A DNA stretch of 40,640 bases from Chiloscyllium plagiosum. Lineage: Eukaryota. The stretch spans positions 28,819,309 through 28,859,948 of the forward strand of contig NC_057719.1 of the NCBI RefSeq assembly GCF_004010195.1. The letters run 5' to 3'. Shown here in pieces: positions 740 through 34,486 of the stretch. The notes beneath the pieces are model-generated. The model saw only the letters and a list, made by a program, of their open reading frames with translations. It searched no databases and was not told the DNA's origin. Both the position numbers and the translations under genes were made by a program. Positions within the stretch are counted from its first letter, which is position 1. Each line of letters opens with the position of its first letter.

Positions 740-1748
740 AGCGCGGTAGATGTGATCTATGTGGACTTCAGTAAGGCGTTCGACAAGGTTCCCCATGGGA
801 GACTGGTTAGCAAGGTTAGATCTCACGGAATACAGGGAGAACTAGCCATTTGGATACAGAACTGGCTCGAAGGTAGAAGACAGAGGGTGGTGGTGGAAGG
901 TTGTTTTTCAGACTAGAGGCCTGTAACCAGTGGAGTGCCACAAGGATCGGTGCTGGGTCCTCTACTTTTTGTCATATACATAAATGATTTGGATGAGAAC
1001 ATAAGAGGTACAGCTAGTAAGTTTGTAAATGTCACCAAAATTGGAGGTGTAGTGAACAGTGAAGAAAGTTATCTCAGATTACAACAGGGTCTTGATCAGA
1101 TGGGCCAATGGGCTGAGAAGTGGCAGATGGAGTTTAATTCAAACAAATGTGAGGTGCTGCATTTTGGGAAAGCAAATCTTAGCAGGACTTATACACTTAG
1201 TGGTAAGGTCGTGCAATTCTGCTCTCCTTCCTATTGGAAAGATGTTGTGAAATTTGAAAGGGTTCAGAAAATATTTACAAGGATGTTGCCAGGGTTGGAG
1301 GATTTGAGCTATAGGGAGAGGCTGAACAGGCTGGGGCTGTTTTCCCTGGAGCGTCAGAAGCTGATGGGTGACCTTATAGAGGTTTACAAAATTATGAGGG
1401 GCATGGATAGGGTAAGTAGACAAAGTCTTTTCCCTGGCGTGGGGGAGTCCAGAACTAGAGGACATAGGTTTAGGGTGAGAGGGGAAAGATATAAAAGACA
1501 CCTAAGGGGCATTTTTTCGCACAGAGGATGGTATGTGTATGGAGTGAGCTGCCAGAGGAAATGGTGGAGGCTGGTACAATTGCAACATTTAAGAGGCATT
1601 TGGATGGGTATATGAATAGGAAGGGTTTGGAGGGATGTGGGCTGGGTGTTGGCAGGTGAGACTAGATTGAGTTGGGATATCTGGTCGGTGTGGATGGGTT
1701 GCACTGAAGGGTCTGTTTCCGTGCTGTACATTTCTATGAATCTATGAG
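740..1748 (+). mobile_element. CR1 LINE 3' fragment (RT to 3' tail), internally deleted
   Basis: VDVIYVDFSKAFDKVPH, VPQGSVLGPLLFVIYINDLD, WAEKWQMEFN, SYRERLNRLGLFSLE. In-frame stop near 914; ends in TCTATGA-type tail repeats. Confidence 0.95.
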
Positions 1749-15949: not shown

Positions 15950-16247
15950 TTAATTTCGGTTGATTGACAGTGTCTATGGAAACGGCCAGGTCTTAATCCG
16001 TCTGGACCCGCCCTCTGGTGTAGTTTGACCAATCATTCGGGAAGAGAACGACCCGAATCTGCTGCAGACTGGGTCGCCGTCACGTTGAAAACAGACAGAA
16101 CCATCCCGGGAGATAGCTTTCTGCATGAGGTGTAAAAAACTTGATCGGCAGGATCCAGCCGAAAAGACAATTCTTTGGGGCATTAGGAGCAGAAAGAGGG
16201 AAGGGGGGGGGGGGGGGGGGTTGGAAATTAGGAGAGAAAAGAGAAAC
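15950..16247 (+). promoter_or_regulatory. Putative SIX4 promoter / 5' UTR at the start of a CpG-rich island
   Basis: TGATTGACAG (PBX-MEIS/PREP decamer) at 15961-15970, GC box CCCGCCC at 16007-16013, CCAAT at 16029-16033. CpG density rises here and stays high through exon 1 and proximal intron 1. Confidence 0.55.
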
Positions 16248-16981
16248 ATGTCTTCCGCTTCAAACGAAATCACGAGCACAATTGAGGTTAAAGAAGAAAA
16301 CGACAGCTTGCAACCAAAGATCAACACACTGGGTTCTGCAGCCACTCTGGAGCCTGAAGTGAGTGCACTTTCTACAAGCCCGGAGATTTCCGATCAGGTA
16401 CCCGTGGAACTGTTAACCAACCCCGCCGCGGCGCTGACTTTTTCGCCGGAGCAAGTGGCGTGTGTGTGCGAGGCTTTGCAACAAGGAGGGAACCTGGATC
16501 GCTTAGCCCAGTTCTTGTGGTCCCTGCCTCCCAGCGATCTGCTACGTGGCAACGAAAGCATCCTGAAAGCCCGGGCTCTGGTGGCTTTCCACCAGAGTCG
16601 CTACAAAGAGCTGTACAGCATTCTGGAGAGTCATAACTTCGACGCGTCCTGCCACACTTCCCTGCAGGATCTATGGTACAAAGCCCGGTACACAGAAGCC
16701 GAGAAAGTCCGCGGCCGGCCCCTGGGGGCTGTGGATAAGTACAGGCTGCGCAGGAAATTCCCCTTGCCCAGGACCATATGGGACGGCGAGGAGAGGGTCT
16801 ACTGCTTCAAGGAGAAATCGCGGAATGCGCTCAAAGAGTTGTACAAACAGAATCGCTACCCATCGCCGGCCGAGAAGCGGAATCTGGCCAAGATCACAGG
16901 GCTTTCCCTCACCCAGGTCAGCAACTGGTTCAAAAATAGGCGCCAGCGAGACCGTAATCCATCGGAAAACCAGTCGAAAAG
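16248..16981 (+). CDS. SIX4: SIX4 coding exon 1 (SIX domain + K50 homeodomain)
   Basis: Translation contains [30 protein letters not shown]...[27 protein letters not shown] and [38 protein letters not shown], near-identical to vertebrate SIX4. ATG at 16248 (AAACATGT) gives [18 protein letters not shown], resembling the human N-terminus. Donor AG|GTGAGG at 16982 (phase 2). Confidence 0.97.
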
Positions 16982-19249: not shown

Positions 19250-20585
19250 AAGGCAAATCAGGGCAGGACTTATACACTTAATGGAAAGGTCCTGGGGAGT
19301 GTTGCTGAACAAAGAGACCTTGCAGTGCAGGTGCATAGTTCCCTGAAAGTGCAGTCACAGGTAGATAGGATAGTGAAGAAGGCATTTAGTTTGCTTTCCT
19401 TTATTGGTCAGAGCATTGAGTAAAGGGGTTGGGTGGTTATGTTACAACTGTACAGGACTTTGGTTAGGCCACTTTTGAAATATTGCATGCAGTTCTGGTC
19501 TCCCTTGTATAGAAAGAATGTTGTGAAACTTGAAATGGTTCAGAAAAGATTTATAAGGATGTTGCCAGGATTGGAGGTTTGAGCTATAGGGAGAAACTGA
19601 ATAGGCTGGGGCTGTTTCTTCTGGAGTGTCAGAGGCTTTCCTTTATTGATCAGAGTATTGAGTACAGAATTTGGGAAGTCATGTTGTGGCTGTACACGAC
19701 ATTGGTTAGGCTGCTGTGGAATATTGCGAGCAATTCTGGTCTTCCTATCAGAAAGATGTTGTAAAACTTCAAAGGATTCAGAAAAGATTTCAAGGATGTT
19801 GCCATGGTTGGAGGATTTGAGCTACAGGGAGAGGCTGAATAGGCTAGGGCTGTTTTCCCTGGAGCGTCGGAGGCTGAGGGGTGACTTTATAGAGGTTTAC
19901 AAAATTAAGAGGGGCATGGATAGGATAAATAGACAAAGTCTTTTCCCTGGGGTCAGGGAGTCCAGAACTAGAGGGCATAGGTTTAGGGTGAGAGGGGAAA
20001 GATACAAGAGACCTAAGGGGCAACGTTTTCACAGAGGGTGGTATGTGTATGGAATGAGATGCCCACGGAAGTGGTGCAGGCTGGTACAATTGCAACATTT
20101 AAAAGGCATCTGGATGGGTATATGAATAGGAAGGATTTGGAGGGATATAGGCCGGGTGCTGGCAGGTGGGACTAGATTGGGTTGAGATATCTGATCGGCA
20201 TGGACGGGTTGGACTGAAGGGTTTGTTTTGTCTCTATGACTCTATGAGGGCTTAAGATAGGATAAATAGACAAGGTCTTTTCCCTGGGTTGGGGGAGTCT
20301 AGAATTAGAGGGCATAGGTTTAGTGTGAGAGGGGAAAGATTTAAAAAGGACCTCCTAAGGGGCAAATTTTCATTCAGAGGGTGGTGCGTGTATGAAATAA
20401 ACTGCCAGAGGAAGTGGTGGAGGCTGGTACAATTTAAAAGGCATTTGGATGGGTATATGAGTAGGAAGGGCTTTGAGGGATATGGGCCAAATGCTGGCAA
20501 AGGAGACTAGATTAATTTAGGATTTAACACAGACGAGTTGGACCAATGGTTCTGTTTCCGTGCTGTACATCTCTACAACTCTATG
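19250..20585 (+). mobile_element. Three tandem, overlapping CR1 3' fragments
   Basis: Copy A ~19250-19636, copy B ~19637-20247 (with tail), copy C ~20255-20585 (with tail); SYRERLNRLGLFSLERRRLRGD. Confidence 0.93.
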
Positions 20586-21422: not shown

Positions 21423-21750
21423 CCACCAACCAGATCAAATGCTGGTCCTGACCCCACACCTTGTTGGGAGCAGCAACCTGACTGCAATTTCTGCTGGATT
21501 GGCCAATTAGTGAACAGGTCCTTGAAGCTAGAGGACTAATAGGTCCTCCACCAAGGAGCTGCTCCCTACCAGTACAGTTGAAAGGAAGTGTCCATTCTGA
21601 GATGCACTCCCGCCACTTGTAAAGTATTAAAATTCACCACAACTGCTAGACTCCCCATTTGTGGAGGGGAATACCATGGAGGCCTGCAGGCCAACTGGTA
21701 AATTTTAGTCAGCCTGTGATCAATGGCCTTCATTGGTTATTTCAATTAAT

Positions 21751-22085
21751 AGGAGAAAGTGAGGACTGCAGATGCTGGAGATCAGAGCTGAAAATGTGTT
21801 GCTGGAAANNNNNNNNNNNNNNNNNNNNNNNNNNNNNNNNNNNNNNNNNNNNNNNNNNNNNNNNNNNNNNNNNGGGAGGGGAAATGAGGAAACTGGAGAA
21901 ATCTGAGTTCATCCCTTGTGGTTGGAGGGTTCCTAGGCAGAAGATGAGACGCTCTTCCTCCAACCGTCGTGTTGCTATGGTCTGGCGATGGAGGAGTCCA
22001 AGGACCTGCATGTCCTTGATGGAGTGGGAGGGGGAGTTGAAGTGTTGAGCCACGGGGTGGTTGGGTTGGTTGGTCCGGGTGTCCC
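21751..22085 (-). mobile_element. Young Penelope-like element 3' end spanning an assembly gap
   Basis: Minus-strand HPVAQHFNSPSHSIKDMQVLGLLHRQTIATRRLEEERLIFCLGTLQPQGMN (GIY-YIG endonuclease C-terminal part), plus terminal repeat at 21751-21808. Confidence 0.85.
21809..21873. other. Assembly gap (65 N)
   Basis: Run of N bases. Confidence 1.
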
Positions 22086-23234
22086 ACGTTTCAGAGAACA
22101 CCTCTTTTCCGCTTCCAAATCAGGACCAAAACCCTGCTTCTAGTCTTGGCATTTACTCAGCATTGGGAATCCATTGTGACTGTGGCCTCTGAAAGACAAC
22201 TCTCTTCTATGCTACTTGTGCTCCCTTTTTCAATGTTGTCTGTTGCTGTGTGAAAAATTGCCTCAAATTTCTGGTTTTACCATGTGTCCACTGGGAACTG
22301 AAATGTCACAAGCATTATGCTACCCAAGGTCAAGTACATTTCATACGGGATTTGTTGAGATGGCAAAAGACGAAAACTTCACCTTATCAGTCTGATCTCG
22401 ATTAAGTACTGATCCCACACTTGTAGATTAATGCTCAAGTCAATTGGACAGTACACCATCCCTCCTTCCTGAGGACAGCTGCAAGTCTGAACGTCACTGT
22501 AATAATGTTTCAGTGATTATGATACCAATTTATACTGATGTTTATTCTGATGTTATGTAGCTGTGTTCAAACAGATGGGCTGAGATAACCTGGACTTTTA
22601 TGTCTTGCAGTTTTGATACAGTATAACCAGTGGATTTTGGTTCAATGTCACTGTTTACATTTAATATCATGCCTTTTAGAGGACTTAAATATTTGATTTA
22701 TTTCTCTTACTGTTCCTTTCACTTTCCAATATCTGTCAGGTACATCAAACTGAAAGCTGAAAATGTTCTGTGTGTTATTGCGATCGGTTATAATTTTTAT
22801 GTAATGTATCATTTTTAAAAATCGAACACTTCAACTTAGTCATCCGTTAACCAGTTAGCAATAAACATATTTTATTGTGCGAGCTATTTAAGTCATCTTC
22901 AGTGCAATATTTTATATTCTGTAATATCTAATGTTATGCTTTTCCCGTTTTTATGAGATCATAAGTGAGTGTCAGCCATTCAACCCAACAAGAGTGCTGT
23001 TTAATAAAATCATGACTGATGTATCATTTTAACTCTATTTTCTCACCTGACCCCATTAATACTTAAGGCTTGTTTGTGAATTACGCACATACTACCATTT
23101 TTGTTTAATCCAGGATAGTCGTTAGTGGATTAATTCCATGCATTCCTATTACATAAAATTTGATAATTTTCAAGATGTAAGTTAAGCATTATACAGTAAT
23201 GAGTGTTTTTGTATTTTTAAACTTCTTTCTGCAG

Positions 23235-23593
23235 TGAGTCAGATGGTAATCACAGCACTGAAGATGAGTCCAGCAAGGGTCAAGAAGACATGTCGCCTCG
23301 TCCATTGTCAAATCCATCTGATGGGATGAACCACTCCAACGTCCATAGTCCTCCAGAAGGCATGTTCATGCATCATATCGGGGAGCTGAAGCCTTCCCAG
23401 AATTCCTCTGGCATACTACTGAATGGAAATCTTGTAACTACAAATGGCTCTCCTGTGTTTTACAGTGGAAGTTCTTTCATCCAAGGTCCTAATGGAGTCC
23501 TTGTTAATGGATTGTCTTTAGGAAATGCCCAGACAATAAGTTTAAGCCCAATAGGAACCACTCCCAGCGTGCTGGTTAATGGTATTTCAAATG
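23235..23593 (+). CDS. SIX4: SIX4 coding exon 2 (5' part of the human exon 2 equivalent)
   Basis: Acceptor CTTCTTTCTGCAG ends at 23234. AG+T completes Ser, then ESDGNHSTEDESSKGQEDMSPRPLS...SFIQGPNGVLVNGL matches SIX4. The 3' end is inferred from donor ATG|GTGAGT at 23594. Confidence 0.9.
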
Positions 23594-23699
23594 GTGAGTC
23601 ATTAGTTAATTCTGCTGCATCAAATAAGTATTTTAAAAATGTGACTGTCCTGTTCAACTGTGTATCTTTTCAATTCTAATTCATACTTTCCCTTCCCAG

Positions 23700-23921
23700 G
23701 GTCTACTGGTGGCACTGAACTTAAAACTGAAAGTGTACACATGCTTACTTCTGAAGAAGCAGTGTCCTCCGGATCTGCTGAAATTAGTAGAGGCCCAGCC
23801 CAAATAAACCAGTATAGCCTTGTGCAGCTGCAAAATACAGAAAATAACATTCATTTGGTAAATGGAAATATTGGGTTACCTCCACTTCAGCTGCCTTCTG
23901 GTTCTGCTGCATCATCACAGG
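23700..23921 (+). CDS. SIX4: SIX4 coding exon 3 (3' part of the human exon 2 equivalent)
   Basis: TELKTES...PAQINQYSLVQ...NGNIGLPPLQLPSGSAASSQG matches SIX4 but lies in a different frame from the preceding segment. Acceptor TACTTTCCCTTCCCAG ends at 23699; donor CAGG|GTAAGT at 23922 (phase 1). Confidence 0.85.
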
Positions 23922-26499
23922 GTAAGTTGCTTTCTGATTTATTTTTGAGAGATTAGCCCACATATCGGGTAAATTCATTACTTAGTTGATTCATTTATTA
24001 ATGTTGGATACTCATTCCAAATTAAAAACGTTCAAACATACTGACAGGGTTAAGTTTATTTGTGTTACACCAAAGAAAACGTATAAAAAGAATATATTGG
24101 TGTTGCATTTTAGTTTTCATCATAGGTGGAATTGAAGAGTTGACTGTTTAAGACTATACTCATGTTAGGAAGAACTATGCCTGACAAATGTATGCCTGTT
24201 CAGTCCACAATGGCACACCAGCTGCACACAGACATCATGAGCTTACTTAACTGGATTGGTATTTAGCCTGGCAGAGTTGTACATATTGTGAAAATCCCCA
24301 TTGAATCTTAGAGTAGTTTAGGACCTGTTTTGCAACTTTCTCTCTGACTCTCATTCCCTACAAAAGAGAAATGCATTTCAAAATTAACCCTTGCAGTGTG
24401 AATTCAGCTGCAATAAGAGCAAATGTCTAACATATGCTAAAGATGTGACAATTGCAATATTTGCTGAGTGACTATCAATTACCATATAAAATCCTCTGCA
24501 GAACTAAACCGCCCTGTATGATTTAGCAAGGTGACTGGGTGAAAGTTACAGGTAATTTGCAAGACAACATACCCTTTGAAAATTGGCTTCATAGATCTTT
24601 TCAATTTCAGTTGTGAGCTTTAACACCATTTCTTCATCTCTCTTTATTAAAGAGTTTTTAATAGTAGGAGATTGCTTATTTGAAAATTGGAATTGCTTTC
24701 CCTTGGCAAAACCTTTGAGTAACCTTTCCATGACTATCTTAAGTCCGTTGTATTCTGCCTTCTGGTAATGTGGAGATAGTAAATAATCAGTAGCTTTTTA
24801 CAATATAGCACTGCTGCTGATGTCAGCCTTGACTTTAGTATATACTCAGTGATCCACTCAGTGGTGGCAGTTTTGCATAACTTCCTGAGAAGCAGCCATG
24901 CTCCCATTTAGCAAATGCAAAAGCAGTGGCTGAATGTAGCCCGTCAGTACAAGCCAACAATGGTGTTTTCATTCAACAGGTTTGGATTCCCCTTTCTCAG
25001 TCGACAAAGAAGTACTATTGACAGAAAATAAATGCAGTAATTTTTAATAAGAGAACACACATGCTTGTAATGTACATTTACCACACTTTAGTAGCTGCCA
25101 AAACTGAAAATAATTCTGCAGCATTAAGTGTGTCACTTTATGGACGAACTTCTCTGAGAGGAATCTCCCTAATAAGAGAAGTGTAAACATTTTATTTCCT
25201 AGACTATTTATATCACCTAGCCTACTGCTAGGTTAATGCAATCTTAAAGCATAGAATTAATAATAAATTTTTAAAAAATACTATTACTGTCCTTGGCAGA
25301 CTGTCAGTGGTCAACATTAATCAATTTAAATATTTCCCTGCATGTACAATTCACAACCAGATTCAACATAAAGCATGGTTAATTTATTCCTAAGTTATTT
25401 TAAGATCAGGTCTGTTTCCTGGACTGTACATAAATAATGCATGGGAAACATGAATAAGTTGGTTTACAGGAGCCACTGTAATCAATAAGATTAAGTTAAA
25501 GTTCCAGCATCTTTCAACATATATCCACCTTGGATATCCTTAAAATAAGCTGCAAGATCAGTTTTGTCAGAGTTAAATTTTATTTAGCTCTACCTTTATT
25601 TCTGTCAGAGACAGAGTACTAATTTGGAATAGTACAGCCAGTTCTACAGACCAGTATGTCAAAAGACATTCTAACTCCTGAGGCACGAGGCAAGGTATCA
25701 TCCCTGTTTGGAGTTCATGTTTAGTTCAGTTTTCTATTCCTCCCTTTCTTGTATGTTCTCTTTATTTTATCTTTTCCTCTCCAAGAAAATTTGAGCCTTT
25801 GGAAAAAGTGTCAAGGATATTCAAGACCCCATTCCTCTGTGTCCCTGTTGCTGATATCTCTCCTTTCATTCAATCTTGTTTTCTTATTTCCTTTCTTGCC
25901 TATCCATGCTCCATTTCATTGTTTTCTGCTCTGTCGTTCAGTCCTTTGTCTTTGCTGTCTTCCTTATTTCCTTCCTTCTGTCCTTCCTTCTGATACAAGA
26001 TATTAGGGAAAGGCATTCATTCAATGACCTCTGAACAAAAATCACATTGGAGTTGAGCCATTAACTTTGTTTCTCCTTACATAGTTGCTGTCAGATCTGC
26101 TGAGCTTTTCAAGCATTATTGTTTTGATTAGAGATTGGCGTTCTTTCTGTTTAAAATGTTGCATATTTCAATATACATCCTCAGAGAGGACAGCTAAGTG
26201 TAAGGTACTCATTGGGTAAAGTTATCAAAAGATGGATTGTCGTTGGCTTTTTTCTCTTTTCATCCAGTTTTCATTTTGTTTGCAATCGCAGTATTCAATT
26301 TGATATTGTGTTGAACTTTGAACCTAATATTCTGTCTACCCTAAAAAGTGTTTTCTTTCATCTCTCGCATCTGTTGCTTCACCTCTAGTTCATCCCATCT
26401 GCTCTCAGATCCTCATCTGGGCATTAATACTTAAGCAGAAAGTGGAGGTACCTCCCATTCTCACTTTACTGTACAATTTAGTTCATCCAAAAGAATCTG

Positions 26500-27524: not shown

Positions 27525-30500
27525 GACTTCAACCAAAAGCAATGTGGTTGACTCTTAACCGCCCCTGAAATGGCCTAGCAAGTCAGTCAGTTGTATCAAT
27601 CCCTGCGAAGTCTCAACAAAGAAAAGAAACTGGACGGACCACCTGGCATCAACATAGGCACCGGAAATATCAATGACAAAGACATGCTGACTTTGCAGAG
27701 TCCGCCTTATGAATATCTTGGGGGGGGGGGGGGGGGACTGTCTTACTGACTAGTCAAGCAACAATCTGACGTAGTCATACTCTCAAAATCATACCCGACA
27801 GATGATGTCACACACACTATAATCACCATTATCCAGTTCACCTGCAGAGGTGGCTACACAGTGGTATACAGTCGGAAGGAATAGCCCTGGGAGTCCACAA
27901 CATTGACGCTGGATCTCATGGCTTCAGGTTAAACACGGGCTAAGAAACCTCCTGCTGATTACTATGTACTGTCCTCCTTGGTTGATGAATAAGTATTACT
28001 TCATGTTGAAAAACACTTGGAGGAAGCACCAAAGTGGCAAAGGTGCAAAATGTACTTTGAGGTGAGATTTCAATGTCTACCATCCAGAGTGGCTCAGCAA
28101 CAGCACTACCAACCAAGCTGGTCGGGTCCTAAAGAACATAGCTGCTAGACGAGTCTGCACAGGTGGTGAGCGACCAATGAGGGAAAACCGTACTTGACCT
28201 CATCCTTACAAATCTGCCAGGTGCAGGTGCATCTACCCATCACAGTATCGGTAAGAGCAACCACCGCGCTGTCCTTGTGGAGACAATGTCCTACCTTCAC
28301 ATTGAGAATGCCCTCTGTCATGTATTGTGGCACTATCGTTGTGCTAAATGGCATAGACTTTGAAAATATCTAGCAACTCAAGACTGTTAATAGCAGCAGA
28401 ATGGTGCTCTCTGCAACCTCATGGTCCAGCATATCTCCCACTCAACCACTGCCATCAAGCTAGAAGATCACCTCTGATTCAGTGCAGTAGGGTATAATAG
28501 GAAGCATACCTGAAAATGAGGTGTCAAACTGGTGAAGCTACCAAGCAGGACTACTTGTGTGCCAAGCAACAAGTGGTAAACACAAGTGAACAATCCCACA
28601 TGAACAGATCACATCTAAGCTTTGCAGTCCTGCCATACCCAGTCATGAATGGCAGTGGACAATTAAATAATTCACTGGAGGAGGAGGATGCTCCACAAAT
28701 GATGGAAGAGCTCAACACACCAGTACAAAACAAAACAAAAACAGAAATTGCTGGAGGAACTCAGCAGTTCTGGCAATCACTGGACCCGAAACATTAACTG
28801 TACTTTCTGTCCACAGATGCTGAGCTTTTCCAGGAATTTCTGTTTTTGTTATTGTTTCTGATTTCCAGCATCTGTAGTTCTTTGTTTTTTTTTAATCAGT
28901 GTTAAAGATAAGGCTGTAGCATTTGCAGCCATCTTCATTCAGAAGTGCTAAGTGGATGATTCATCTTGGCCTCTTTCAGTGGTCCCCAGCATCACAGATC
29001 CCAGTCTTCAGCCACTCAATTCACTCCACATGATATCAAGAAATGGTTAGAGGCACTCATTGCAGGGATGGCTATGGGGCCTGACAACATTCTATCAATA
29101 GTACTGAAAATTGGTACTCTAGAATTTGAAGCTTCCATAGCCAAGCTCTTCCAGTGTAGTTGCAACATTGGCATCTACCCAACAAAGTGGAAAATTGTCC
29201 AGGTACATCCTGTGCACAAAAAAGCAGGACAAATCCAACCCTGACAATTACTGTCCCATCAGTCTACTCTCGATCATCAGTAAAGTGATGGAAGGTGTCA
29301 TCAACAGTGCTATCAAGCAGTACCTGCTCAGCAATAACCTGCTCAGTGATACTCTGGGTTCCACCAGGGCCATTCTGCTCCTGACCTCATTACAGTCTTG
29401 GTTCAGCATGGACAAAAGAGCTGAATTCCAGAGGTGAGGTGAGAGTAACAGCCCTTGATATCAAGGCTGCGCTCAAGTGAGTGTGGTATCAAGAAGCCCT
29501 GGCAAAATTAGAGTCAATGTATACTGGGGACGAACTCTCTGCTGGTTAGTGACTTTTCTGGCACATAGAAAAATGGTTGTTAGAGATCAGTCATCTCTGC
29601 AGGAGTTCCTCAAGGTAGTTTCCTAGCCCAAACCACCTTCATCTGCTTCCTTAATGATTTTCCCTCTGTCATAAGGTTGGCAGTAGGGAAGTCTGCAGAT
29701 CTTTGCACAATGCTCAGCACCATTCACTACACCATCCACAACAACTGCAACTGGCACTCCAGCTACAAATCTTTACACAAACCTTGACTGTTCACTACTC
29801 CTCAGGTACTGAAGCAGCACATATTCAAATGCAACAAATCCTAGAAAATACCCAGGCTTGGACTGATGAGTGGCAAATAACATTTGCACTGCTCAAATGC
29901 AAGACAATAACCAACTCCAGTAAGAGACAATCTAACCACCACCCCATGACATTCAAAGATGTTGTCATCACTGAATCCTCCACTATCAACATCCTGGGGG
30001 TTGACCTGAAACTCAACTGGACTCTCCACGTAATCACTGCCTACAAGAGCAAGTCAGGAGCAAGGAAAACTGCAATGAGTAACTCACTCCCTGACTCCTC
30101 TATCCACCAACTACAAGGCACCAGTCAGGAGTGTGATGGAATACTCCCCACTTGCCTGGTTGAATGCATCTCCAACAACATTCAAGAAGCTTGACACCAC
30201 CCAGGTCAAAGCTGCCCGCTTGATTGGAACCATAACCACAAGCATCCACTCCTTCCACTACCAAGGCATAGTAACAACAGTGTGTACTATCTACAAGGTG
30301 CACTGCAGAAATTCAACAAGATCCTTAGATAGCACCTTCCAAACCCATGGTGACTACCTTCTAGAAGGACAAGGGCAACAGATACATGGGAACACCTCAA
30401 CCTATAAGTTCCTCTCCAAGATACTCATCATCTTGACTTGGAAATGTATGTTTCTTCATTGTTACTGGGTAAAAGAATTCCTTCTCTGAGGATATTATAG

Positions 30501-33665: not shown

Positions 33666-34486
33666 GAAACATTTTGATAACAAACACATCAGATGGAGGA
33701 ACATTCCTAAGTGGTACAGCAGCCAGTCTTCAGCAAGGTAAGGTCTTCTTGGCTGCCACACTCCCACCAAATGCAGTAATGTGCACATTACCTAATTCAG
33801 GGCAGGCTGTTGCCCCAGTAAAACAGGATGCGTTGGAAGGAGGTCTTGTTTTTTCTCAATTAATGTCAGTGAGTGGAAACAATCATATGAATATTAACAC
33901 ATCTCCTGGGAGCCAACCTGGAAATACCCTACAAACTCAAAGCTCAACGCTGGTGAACACAGGGCTGCCTCAAAACCTGCCTTTAACTTCATCAAATTTG
34001 CTGAACACATCAAGTACTTTGAGCTTCAGCCTCACAGTGAGTTTGCCACTGTCAACTACTGCATCTCTGAATTGTGATCAACAGTTGTCTACTGCTGTCA
34101 CGAATGCAGTACCTGTAGTGTCAATGGCCAACAGTCAGTATGCTACACTCCAGAACTGTAATCTGCTTACAAGCTCTGGCCAAGAGACTATAACTGAAAC
34201 TGGTCTTGATTCTTCTGACACTGAGGATAAGCCTAGAAATCCTATTACAGAAGAAACGCATGAATACAGTAGTGGACATGTGTCTGTACTTCATCCCCCA
34301 GTAAAGGAAAACTACTTGGTAGTTCTAGAAAACAAATCTAGCAACCACCTAACAATGATGGACTCTAAATCCAAATATGTGATAAATGATGTGGTTAACA
34401 ATGTCTGCAAGGAATTAGAAACTGAGGAAAAGGAACTAGCAAAACTTCAAAATGTTCCTATGGATGAAGATCTCAGTGATATATAA
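33666..34486 (+). CDS. SIX4: SIX4 terminal coding exon (C-terminal activation region)
   Basis: Acceptor TAG ends at 33665. G+GA completes Gly, then NILITNTSDGGTF...QQGKVFL...YATLQNC...MMDSKSKYV...LETEEKELAKLQNVPMDEDLSDI*, the SIX4-type C-terminus. TAA at 34484-34486. Confidence 0.96.

What the first reader, a model, noticed from the sequence alone, without database searches (positions are those of the whole stretch)
23594..23699. Extra 106-nt intron inside SIX4 'exon 2' that still resembles coding sequence (candidate intronization)
Seen: the SIX4 frame stops at TAA 23677-23679 while homology resumes in another frame. A consensus donor (ATG|GTGAGT, 23594), a branch-like TTCTAAT (23674-23680), a pyrimidine tract and a CAG acceptor (23699) define a 106-nt phase-1 intron. 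Removing it restores the frame exactly (...NGISN-G-STGGTELK..., total CDS 2136 nt). Recalled: human SIX4 has three coding exons and about 40 aa here (...KEFKVLQSS...PVSFPG). The intron translates in two frames as ...KYFKNV... and ...SYFPFPG, echoing that peptide. Inference: either coding sequence became an intron in this lineage, or an ancestral intron was exonized in bony vertebrates. Retention would give a truncated SIX+homeodomain product or an NMD target.
Basis: partly seen in the sequence, partly recalled or inferred. Interest (0 to 1): 0.85.

Follow-up and report, generated by a model that had tools for sequence, protein, structure and literature searches.

The report
Shark SIX4 intron born from exon
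In a bamboo shark, a short piece of the developmental gene SIX4 that codes for protein in bony vertebrates, and appears optionally spliced in chimaera and several other sharks, has lost its reading frame and become a true intron, giving a rare staged view of how an intron can arise from an exon.

Summary
Confirmed. 23594-23699 is a real 106-nt GT..AG intron in shark SIX4. Removing it gives a 711-aa protein identical to the last 711 aa of the RefSeq Chiloscyllium plagiosum model. One sequencing run holds both the exact junction and the unspliced 106 nt; a near relative has the same length, without gaps. It is decayed coding sequence. The homologous peptide is present in 107 of 107 tetrapod and 22 of 22 non-teleost ray-finned SIX4 proteins viewed. 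In 7 of 22 cartilaginous fishes (chimaera, six sharks) it is an open 111-nt segment annotated both retained and spliced, i.e. an exitron. Here it has a net 5-nt loss, a stop on retention, and changes faster than its exons (p = 0.005). A skate-like fragment stops right after the donor, suggesting a second, independent completion. Best reading: intronization through a long-lived exitron stage. RefSeq already models the intron; six literature searches found no description. The scan found this before on other DNA (manta ray, e1-7809306). Not shown: real retention in other sharks, NMD, cyclostome polarity.

The parts
16248..16981 (+). SIX4 coding exon 1 (SIX domain and homeodomain); an in-frame upstream ATG lies at 16125
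   Evidence: 244/244 to P0125; PF16878, PF00046
16982..23234 (+). intron 1 (GT..AG)
23235..23593 (+). exon 2a: 5' part of the ancestral single exon 2
   Evidence: (100% to carpet-shark protein over this part)
23594..23699 (+). 106-nt phase-1 intron derived from coding sequence (111-nt open exitron in seven other cartilaginous fishes)
23591..23599 (+). 5' splice site ATG|GTGAGT, formed by the codons for Asn-Gly-Glu and the next base
23593..23646 (+). first coding remnant, still in the upstream frame (18 codons, 12 of 18 equal to the majority residue of seven open-frame relatives)
23644..23648 (+). frame break: about 8 nt lost relative to other sharks (inferred from peptide alignment; their DNA was not seen)
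23648..23698 (+). second coding remnant, in the downstream frame (17 codons, one codon more than relatives near 23663-23668)
23674..23680 (+). branch-point-like TTCTAAT; its TAA (23677-23679) is the stop met if the intron is retained
   Evidence: branch use inferred from consensus only
23686..23699 (+). pyrimidine tract and CAG acceptor, overlapping the old Pro-Phe-Pro-Gly codons
23700..23921 (+). exon 2b: 3' part of the ancestral exon 2
   Evidence: 73/73 to P0125
23922..33665 (+). last intron (GT..AG)
33666..34486 (+). last coding exon with stop
   Evidence: (272/272 to P0125)

Best explanation
This is an intron made from coding sequence, in three steps. Step 1 (inferred): in the jawed-vertebrate ancestor the segment encoded about 37 residues of the unstructured C-terminal region of SIX4; its Asn-Gly-Glu codons could spell a G|GTGAG donor and its Ser/Pro-Phe-Pro-Gly codons a pyrimidine tract with CAG|G. 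Step 2 (shown at the level of protein models): before chimaeras and sharks split, the spliceosome began to excise it as an in-frame 111-nt exitron, giving proteins that differ by 37 aa; this open state persists in chimaera, sevengill, horn, white, basking and two catsharks. Step 3 (shown for this genome and one near relative): in the bamboo-shark line a net 5-nt loss broke the frame, so retention now reads the branch-point TAA as a stop (392-aa product without the C-terminal part, a predicted NMD target). Only the spliced mRNA gives full-length SIX4, so the segment is now an obligatory U2-type intron that drifts like one. Skates appear to have reached the same end by a different mutation (inferred from one fragment).
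For: Splicing: junction contig skipping exactly 106 nt at GT..AG; spliced CDS identical to the RefSeq protein tail; strong sites. Coding origin: 18 of 20 comparisons between two retained chondrichthyan segments and ten bony-vertebrate peptides give p <= 0.006 against shuffles (ends were anchored by eye, which helps the score); clear column-wise match; peptide present in 107 of 107 tetrapod proteins viewed out of 110 listed and 22 of 22 non-teleost ray-finned proteins, three of them full-length assembly-derived sturgeon-type proteins. Exitron stage: 7 retained/spliced pairs differ by exactly 37 aa at the same junction, with no indel or stop, 19 of 37 columns invariant, chimaera-to-shark identity 64-75%. 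Frame loss is derived: the carpet-shark clade (100/99) is nested among open-frame lineages in the SIX4 tree. Intron-like drift: 6 differences in 106 nt against 6 in 580 exon nt versus organism B (Fisher p = 0.005), not different from flanking introns (6 in 220, p = 0.21); same stop kept; GC 33% against 44-45% in the exons. Dispensability: pLDDT about 26-31 over residues 365-401 of the retained form, no Pfam domain. Polarity: all 8 SIX5-type paralogs have 28-50 residues between the same anchors (retained shark form 46, spliced 9).
Against: The retained isoforms are database models; none was checked against reads here, and they can only be annotated where the frame is open (ascertainment). The test for conservative substitutions in the seven open segments was not significant (9 of 23, p = 0.17). 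SIX5 similarity reached significance in only 3 of 8 proteins. No lamprey, hagfish, coelacanth or lungfish SIX4 was retrieved. Bichir, sturgeon, paddlefish and gar keep Asn-Gly-Glu, so the donor may be older than cartilaginous fishes. Junction evidence is one 58-nt contig from one run of unrecorded library type. DNA of the segment was seen for only two organisms; the state in other carpet sharks, Mustelus and most rays is unknown.
Confidence: 0.72

Rival explanations
1. Same process, older start: the segment was already an optional exitron in the jawed-vertebrate ancestor; bony vertebrates lost the splicing and cartilaginous fishes kept and extended it.
For: Asn-Gly-Glu, which can spell the donor, is kept in bichir, sturgeon, paddlefish and gar; several frogs and bowfin have Asn-Gly-Asp. 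The Phe-Pro end is kept widely.
Against: No spliced form among 22 non-teleost ray-finned proteins or 107 tetrapod proteins viewed. Segment length varies freely there (30-40 aa) but is fixed at 37 in the seven cartilaginous fishes. Codons in these fishes were not seen.
Confidence: 0.12
2. The segment became a constitutive intron once, in the chondrichthyan ancestor. The retained 'X1' models are pre-mRNA artefacts, and the open frame survives only through slow evolution and splice-signal constraint.
For: All 22 cartilaginous fishes have a model using the donor; 14 have only the spliced form. Assembly-derived skate-type proteins are spliced. The conservative-substitution test was not significant.
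Against: Exactly 37 codons without stop or indel in 7 lineages that include chimaera, split 300-420 million years ago (PMC6238376, passages), with 64-75% identity, while the bamboo-shark copy has two indels and 10 changes in 34 compared residues.
Confidence: 0.08
3. Not exclusive of the best reading: the frame break was kept because retention now serves as a regulated off-switch (poison or detained intron) that lowers SIX4 through NMD, or makes a truncated SIX+homeodomain protein lacking the activation region.
For: Stop lies 242 nt before the last junction; product would be 392 aa. SIX4 has a C-terminal activation domain (PMC2978361, passages). An unspliced contig exists in run X1.
Against: The same run also covers both flanking introns, so the unspliced contig can be pre-mRNA or DNA. 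Splice sites are as strong as the constitutive ones. The segment diverges at an intron-like rate.
Confidence: 0.12
4. Reverse direction: an ancestral intron was exonized, partly in cartilaginous fishes and fully in bony vertebrates.
For: No cyclostome outgroup was obtained; the two gnathostome lineages alone cannot root the change.
Against: SIX5-type paralogs carry coding sequence of similar length here, weakly similar in 3 of 8. The frame-broken state is nested within open-frame lineages, so at least the last step runs from coding to non-coding.
Confidence: 0.04
5. Assembly error: the frame is really open and the segment is ordinary exon.
For: The genome is fragmented (101,977 contigs) and the window has an N run in intron 1.
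Against: Run X1 reproduces the 106 nt with 0 differences and 0 gaps, organism B has the same length and stop, and the junction is seen. The difference from other sharks is two indels, not one base.
Confidence: 0.01

Closest known systems
Intronization Model, phases 1-3 (Ryll, Rothering and Catania 2022, PMC9612004; introduction and passages read)
   Same: Short 3n coding sequence with latent splice sites becomes alternatively spliced, then gains a premature stop so that the unspliced form is lost to NMD.
   Different: That paper infers the phases from genome-wide statistics in Paramecium. Here the phases sit side by side in living vertebrate lineages at one locus, the middle phase appears to have lasted 300-420 million years, and the stop came by a frameshift that exposes the branch-point TAA.
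Exitrons (Marquez et al. 2015, PMC4484396; passages read)
   Same: Internal piece of a coding exon, often 3n, often in a disordered region, descended from ancestral coding sequence. Fits the 111-nt state in seven relatives.
   Different: The window's copy is no longer an exitron: retention gives a stop, length is 3n+1, GC is intron-like and the sites are strong. [quoted passage not shown]
Human intronization cases CYP21A2, RPGR, HELZ2 (Hoh and Salzberg 2025, PMC12124190; first half of the text read)
   Same: Intron in one lineage, exon of matching length in others, in an unstructured region; translated intron still similar to the orthologous peptide (their CYP21A2 case).
   Different: They found 3 among 342 human intron gains and say they met no study reporting intronization across vertebrate subgroups. 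The text read gives no alternatively spliced intermediate or parallel completion. Their scan starts from human introns, so it could not see this one.
Type B retained introns (Braunschweig et al. 2014, PMC4216919; passages read)
   Same: Defined as arising by intronization of ancestral exon; short. 327 in human and 141 in mouse, so the class is not rare.
   Different: Type B introns have the highest GC, weakest sites and highest retention; this one has low GC and strong sites, i.e. it looks further along.

Membership tests
U2-type spliceosomal intron | GT..AG ends with consensus donor, pyrimidine tract and YAG|G | tested here: met
   (tables approximate and recalled)
U2-type spliceosomal intron | Excised precisely in sequence reads | tested here: met
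   one contig of run X1 skips 106 nt at GT..AG; 28 and 30 letters on the sides; one run, library type not on record
U2-type spliceosomal intron | Removal restores the conserved protein | tested here: met
   711 aa, identical to the tail of P0125
U2-type spliceosomal intron | Branch point used (lariat) | not testable with these tools
   CTAAT with its A 20 nt from the end is consensus only
Exitron (window's copy) | Retention introduces no stop codon | tested here: not met
   TAA 23677-23679 in the upstream frame, also in organism B
Exitron (window's copy) | Exon-like GC and weak splice sites (typical feature) | tested here: not met
   GC 33% against 44-45%; site scores equal to the gene's constitutive sites
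Exitron (orthologous segment in seven relatives) | Open, 3n, internal to a coding exon, both forms annotated | tested here: met
   7 pairs differing by exactly 37 aa with equal flanks
Exitron (orthologous segment in seven relatives) | Both forms are mature, translated mRNAs | tested here: inconclusive
   Only protein models seen; frame and length conserved, conservative-change test p = 0.17
Exitron (orthologous segment in seven relatives) | Lies in a disordered region (typical feature) | tested here: met
   pLDDT about 26-31 at residues 365-401 of P0123; low confidence is only a proxy for disorder
Intron gained by intronization | Orthologous stretch is exon of matching length in several outgroup species | tested here: met
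   30-40 aa in ten bony vertebrates against 36 here; 107 of 107 and 22 of 22 proteins viewed
Intron gained by intronization | Translated intron still resembles the orthologous peptide | tested here: met
   Two-frame tblastn match to all 7 retained peptides; weak or partial direct match to 3 tetrapod peptides
Intron gained by intronization | Coding state is ancestral (rooted by an outgroup to jawed vertebrates) | tested here: inconclusive
   SIX5-type paralogs coding at this place, significant in 3 of 8; no cyclostome sequence retrieved
Intron gained by intronization | Unspliced form carries a premature stop and is removed by NMD | not testable with these tools
   Stop present, 242 nt before the last junction; decay not measured
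Regulated poison or detained intron | Retention varies by tissue or stage and controls protein level | not testable with these tools
   Contigs give no levels

The most novel reading that the evidence does not exclude
SIX4 exon 2 preserves the whole birth of a vertebrate intron as a living series: plain coding sequence in bony vertebrates, a translated in-frame exitron kept for 300-420 million years in chimaera and most shark orders, and completion into an obligatory intron at least twice independently (a frameshift in bamboo sharks that turns the branch-point TAA into the stop; a stop two codons after the donor in skates), with splice signals written by the codons of the old peptide.
Probability: 0.55. 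Interest if true: 0.72.

Novelty: new member of a known kind. Interest (0 to 1): 0.56.

Why it matters
How new introns arise in vertebrates is an open question, and documented intronizations are few and mostly show only the start and end states (3 of 342 human gains in PMC12124190). The Intronization Model predicts an order: latent sites, then alternative splicing of a 3n piece, then a stop and NMD. This locus appears to hold each stage in different living animals of one clade, several of them laboratory species, so retention level, splice-site strength, GC decay and NMD sensitivity can be compared stage by stage. It also means that carpet sharks and rays, on their current protein models, make a SIX4 that lacks a 37-residue piece found in tetrapod SIX4. 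The mechanism class is known and RefSeq already models the isoforms, so this is a good example, not a new kind of thing.

Tried and rejected
One spurious base in the assembly: rejected. Retrocopy as the source of the junction: the 761-nt region has one match in G000, though that search is a lower bound. Runs X9 and X17 laid nothing; no conclusion drawn. Contig depths (junction 43.9, through-segment 27.2, flanks 22.1 and 38.6) were not used as a retention level. Search for short genomic-frame proteins from other sharks and rays: 6 candidates, none at E <= 0.001. SIX5 in the own genome as a same-species outgroup: not found, under a stricter first look. Profile search of 1.84 billion representatives: 34 hits; the 10 looked up by name were gnathostome SIX4 or SIX5, none was recognised as cyclostome. 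Protein-level selection by conservative substitutions: not significant. A frame slip in the codon table was corrected; the counts and Fisher tests are unaffected (exon 2a taken as 358 instead of 359 nt). Three tetrapod proteins (P0106, P0109, P0117) were not viewed. Literature: SIX4 + exitron, 0 papers; Six4 + shark + splicing, 7; intronization / intron gain / cartilaginous fish, 93, 20 listed; Six4 isoform terms, 91, 20 listed; Six4 / cartilaginous / exon / catshark, 135, 20 listed; intronization + shark, 5. No listed title or abstract start describes this intron; these were seen as listings only, subscription papers are not covered, and no supplements were opened (those of PMC12124190 and PMC4216919 list intron cases, but start from human or mouse introns).

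Full report
What the window is. The window holds a shark SIX4 gene. Exon 1 encodes the SIX domain and homeodomain. Compared exon by exon, the window matches RefSeq XP_043553188.1 of Chiloscyllium plagiosum at 244/244, 73/73 and 272/272 residues, and the four-exon CDS of 2136 nt translates to the last 711 aa of that protein. The region is single-copy in G000 at the sensitivity of the search.

The observation. The 106-nt stretch 23594-23699 starts GTGAGT and ends in a pyrimidine tract and CAG, with TTCTAAT at 23674-23680. Its donor and acceptor score as well as the gene's other sites and in the top 0.35% and 0.22% of + strand GT and AG sites, using approximate recalled tables. Four runs were laid on 23120-24050. 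X1 (organism A, library not on record) gives a 58-nt contig that skips exactly these 106 nt at GT..AG, and a 164-nt contig through them with no difference. The junction contig has 28 and 30 letters on its sides, under the tool's bridging bar of 31. X1 also covers both flanking introns without a break, so its unspliced contig may be pre-mRNA or DNA and says nothing about retention. If X1 were DNA, the junction would be an allele without the intron, which this call does not exclude. X16 (organism B) spans 23122-23801 in one contig with 13 substitutions and no gap. X9 and X17 laid nothing. An assembly error is therefore rejected.

What relatives show. Among 22 named cartilaginous fishes, 7 have two forms: Callorhinchus, Heptranchias, Heterodontus, Carcharodon, Cetorhinus, Scyliorhinus canicula and S. 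torazame. In each, the long form has exactly 37 more residues at this junction and the flanks are equal. Fourteen have only the spliced form: five carpet sharks, Mustelus and eight rays and skates. One, Pristiophorus, has a 388-aa model that appears to use the same donor and a later AG. The seven retained peptides have no indel, 19 of 37 invariant columns and 64-75% identity between chimaera and sharks, lineages that split 300-420 million years ago (PMC6238376, passages). A test for excess conservative change was not significant (9 of 23, p = 0.17), and these long forms are models that I could not check against reads.

The segment is old coding sequence. The window's intron matches all seven retained peptides in two frames, first half upstream, second half downstream. 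The overlap of the two matches implies about 8 nt lost near 23645 and one codon gained near 23663, net 5 nt shorter than 111; this is inferred from peptides, as the relatives' DNA was not seen. The retained peptides in turn align with bony-vertebrate SIX4; 18 of 20 comparisons beat composition-preserving shuffles at p <= 0.006, both exceptions being reedfish (the ends were anchored by eye). The peptide is present in 107 of 107 tetrapod-type proteins viewed, of 110 listed, and in 22 of 22 non-teleost ray-finned proteins. Of 20 teleost rows, 16 carry a shortened version, 2 are gappy and 2 lack most of it with other breakpoints. For the root, 8 SIX5-type proteins (4 named by a source) have 28-50 residues between the same anchors, against 46 in the retained and 9 in the spliced shark form; similarity is significant in 3 of 8. 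No cyclostome, coelacanth or lungfish SIX4 was retrieved, so polarity rests on this weaker evidence.

It now behaves as an intron. Against organism B the segment has 6 differences in 106 nt, the two exons 6 in 580 (p = 0.005) and the flanking intron pieces 6 in 220 (p = 0.21). Both exon-2a differences are silent. GC is 33% against 44-45% in the exons. Against the majority of the seven open peptides, the remnants differ at 10 of 34 compared residues, 2 of them conservative. The stop at 23677 is present in both organisms, so the break is older than their split. In a tree of 24 SIX4 proteins (spliced forms for the 20 cartilaginous fishes; Rhincodon and Pristiophorus left out as partial), carpet sharks form a clade (100/99) nested among open-frame lineages, and rays form a separate clade (100/100). 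An unnamed 103-aa fragment, 102/103 identical to skate SIX4, ends two codons after the donor position; read as an unspliced frame, this is a different lesion and so a second completion. That rests on one fragment.

How it most likely works. Shown: strong U2-type signals, excision at these ends, full-length protein only on splicing, stop on retention 242 nt before the last junction with a 392-aa product. Inferred: the signals come from the old codons. Asn-Gly-Glu can spell G|GTGAG and is seen in the seven open forms and in bichir, sturgeon, paddlefish and gar, while tetrapods have Asp or other residues there. The Phe-Pro-Gly end gives the pyrimidine tract and CAG|G; the only change at the last residue among the seven is Pro to Ser, which is compatible with keeping YCAG. 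The piece lies in a region predicted without structure (pLDDT 26-31), between the homeodomain and the C-terminus, where SIX4 has its activation domain (PMC2978361, passages), so its loss is probably tolerated. After the frameshift, the TAA inside the branch-like CTAAT became the first stop; by the usual 50-55 nt rule (recalled) the retained RNA would go to NMD, which removes any remaining coding constraint.

Comparison with what is known. It works like the Intronization Model of PMC9612004. The window's copy fails the exitron definition of PMC4484396 (stop on retention), while the seven relatives' copies meet it at the level of models. It meets the criteria that PMC12124190 used for its 3 human intronizations among 342 gains; that paper says it met no study of intronization across vertebrate subgroups. 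PMC4216919 counts 327 human and 141 mouse retained introns of exonic origin, so the class is not rare; a resolved series with a completed end is the less common part. Six searches found no listed paper on this intron, within the limits given under Tried and rejected. RefSeq already models both isoforms.

Verdict. New member of a known kind; interest 0.56; best explanation 0.72.

Noticed in passing
P0132 (unnamed, 103 aa); equivalent to window 23290-23598: Skate-like fragment (102/103 to Leucoraja and Amblyraja) ends Gly-Lys-stop at the donor position, as expected if skates have a GTAAGT-type donor with an immediate stop: an independent loss of frame.
   Followed up: partly
P0143; equivalent to window 23733: The Pristiophorus model appears to join the same donor to an AG 34 nt past the usual acceptor, shifting the frame and ending at 388 aa. 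The matching AG in the window scores poorly.
   Followed up: partly
P0166 (naked mole-rat isoform X3): Joins an Asn-Gly site earlier in exon 2 directly to the last exon, suggesting that the many Asn-Gly codon pairs of this exon are a recurring source of latent donors.
   Followed up: no
P0223 (moray) and P0185 (unnamed teleost-like): Lack most of the homologous peptide with breakpoints different from the shark junction: separate deletions or separate splicing.
   Followed up: no
window 16125-16247: In-frame upstream ATG; RefSeq Chiloscyllium and Hemiscyllium models start upstream (41 extra aa in P0125), most other shark models start at the position equal to 16248.
   Followed up: no
G000, L002-L008: A coelacanth SIX5 query found this SIX4 and five other SIX-type homeobox matches (two more on C10, two on C9, one on small contig C101551) but no SIX5-like C-terminal exons; SIX5 may be missing from the assembly (stricter first look).
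   Followed up: partly
window 917-1612, 19601-20122, 21650-22119, 29658-30486: Repeat-like open frames; 917-1612 has a reverse-transcriptase match (PF00078), three others tested had no Pfam hit. A 65-nt N run lies at 21809-21873.
   Followed up: partly
window 24075-24095: A-rich stretch early in the last intron. Internal oligo-dT priming there could explain why run X1 shows the short intron spliced while the long last intron is not; this is a guess.
   Followed up: no
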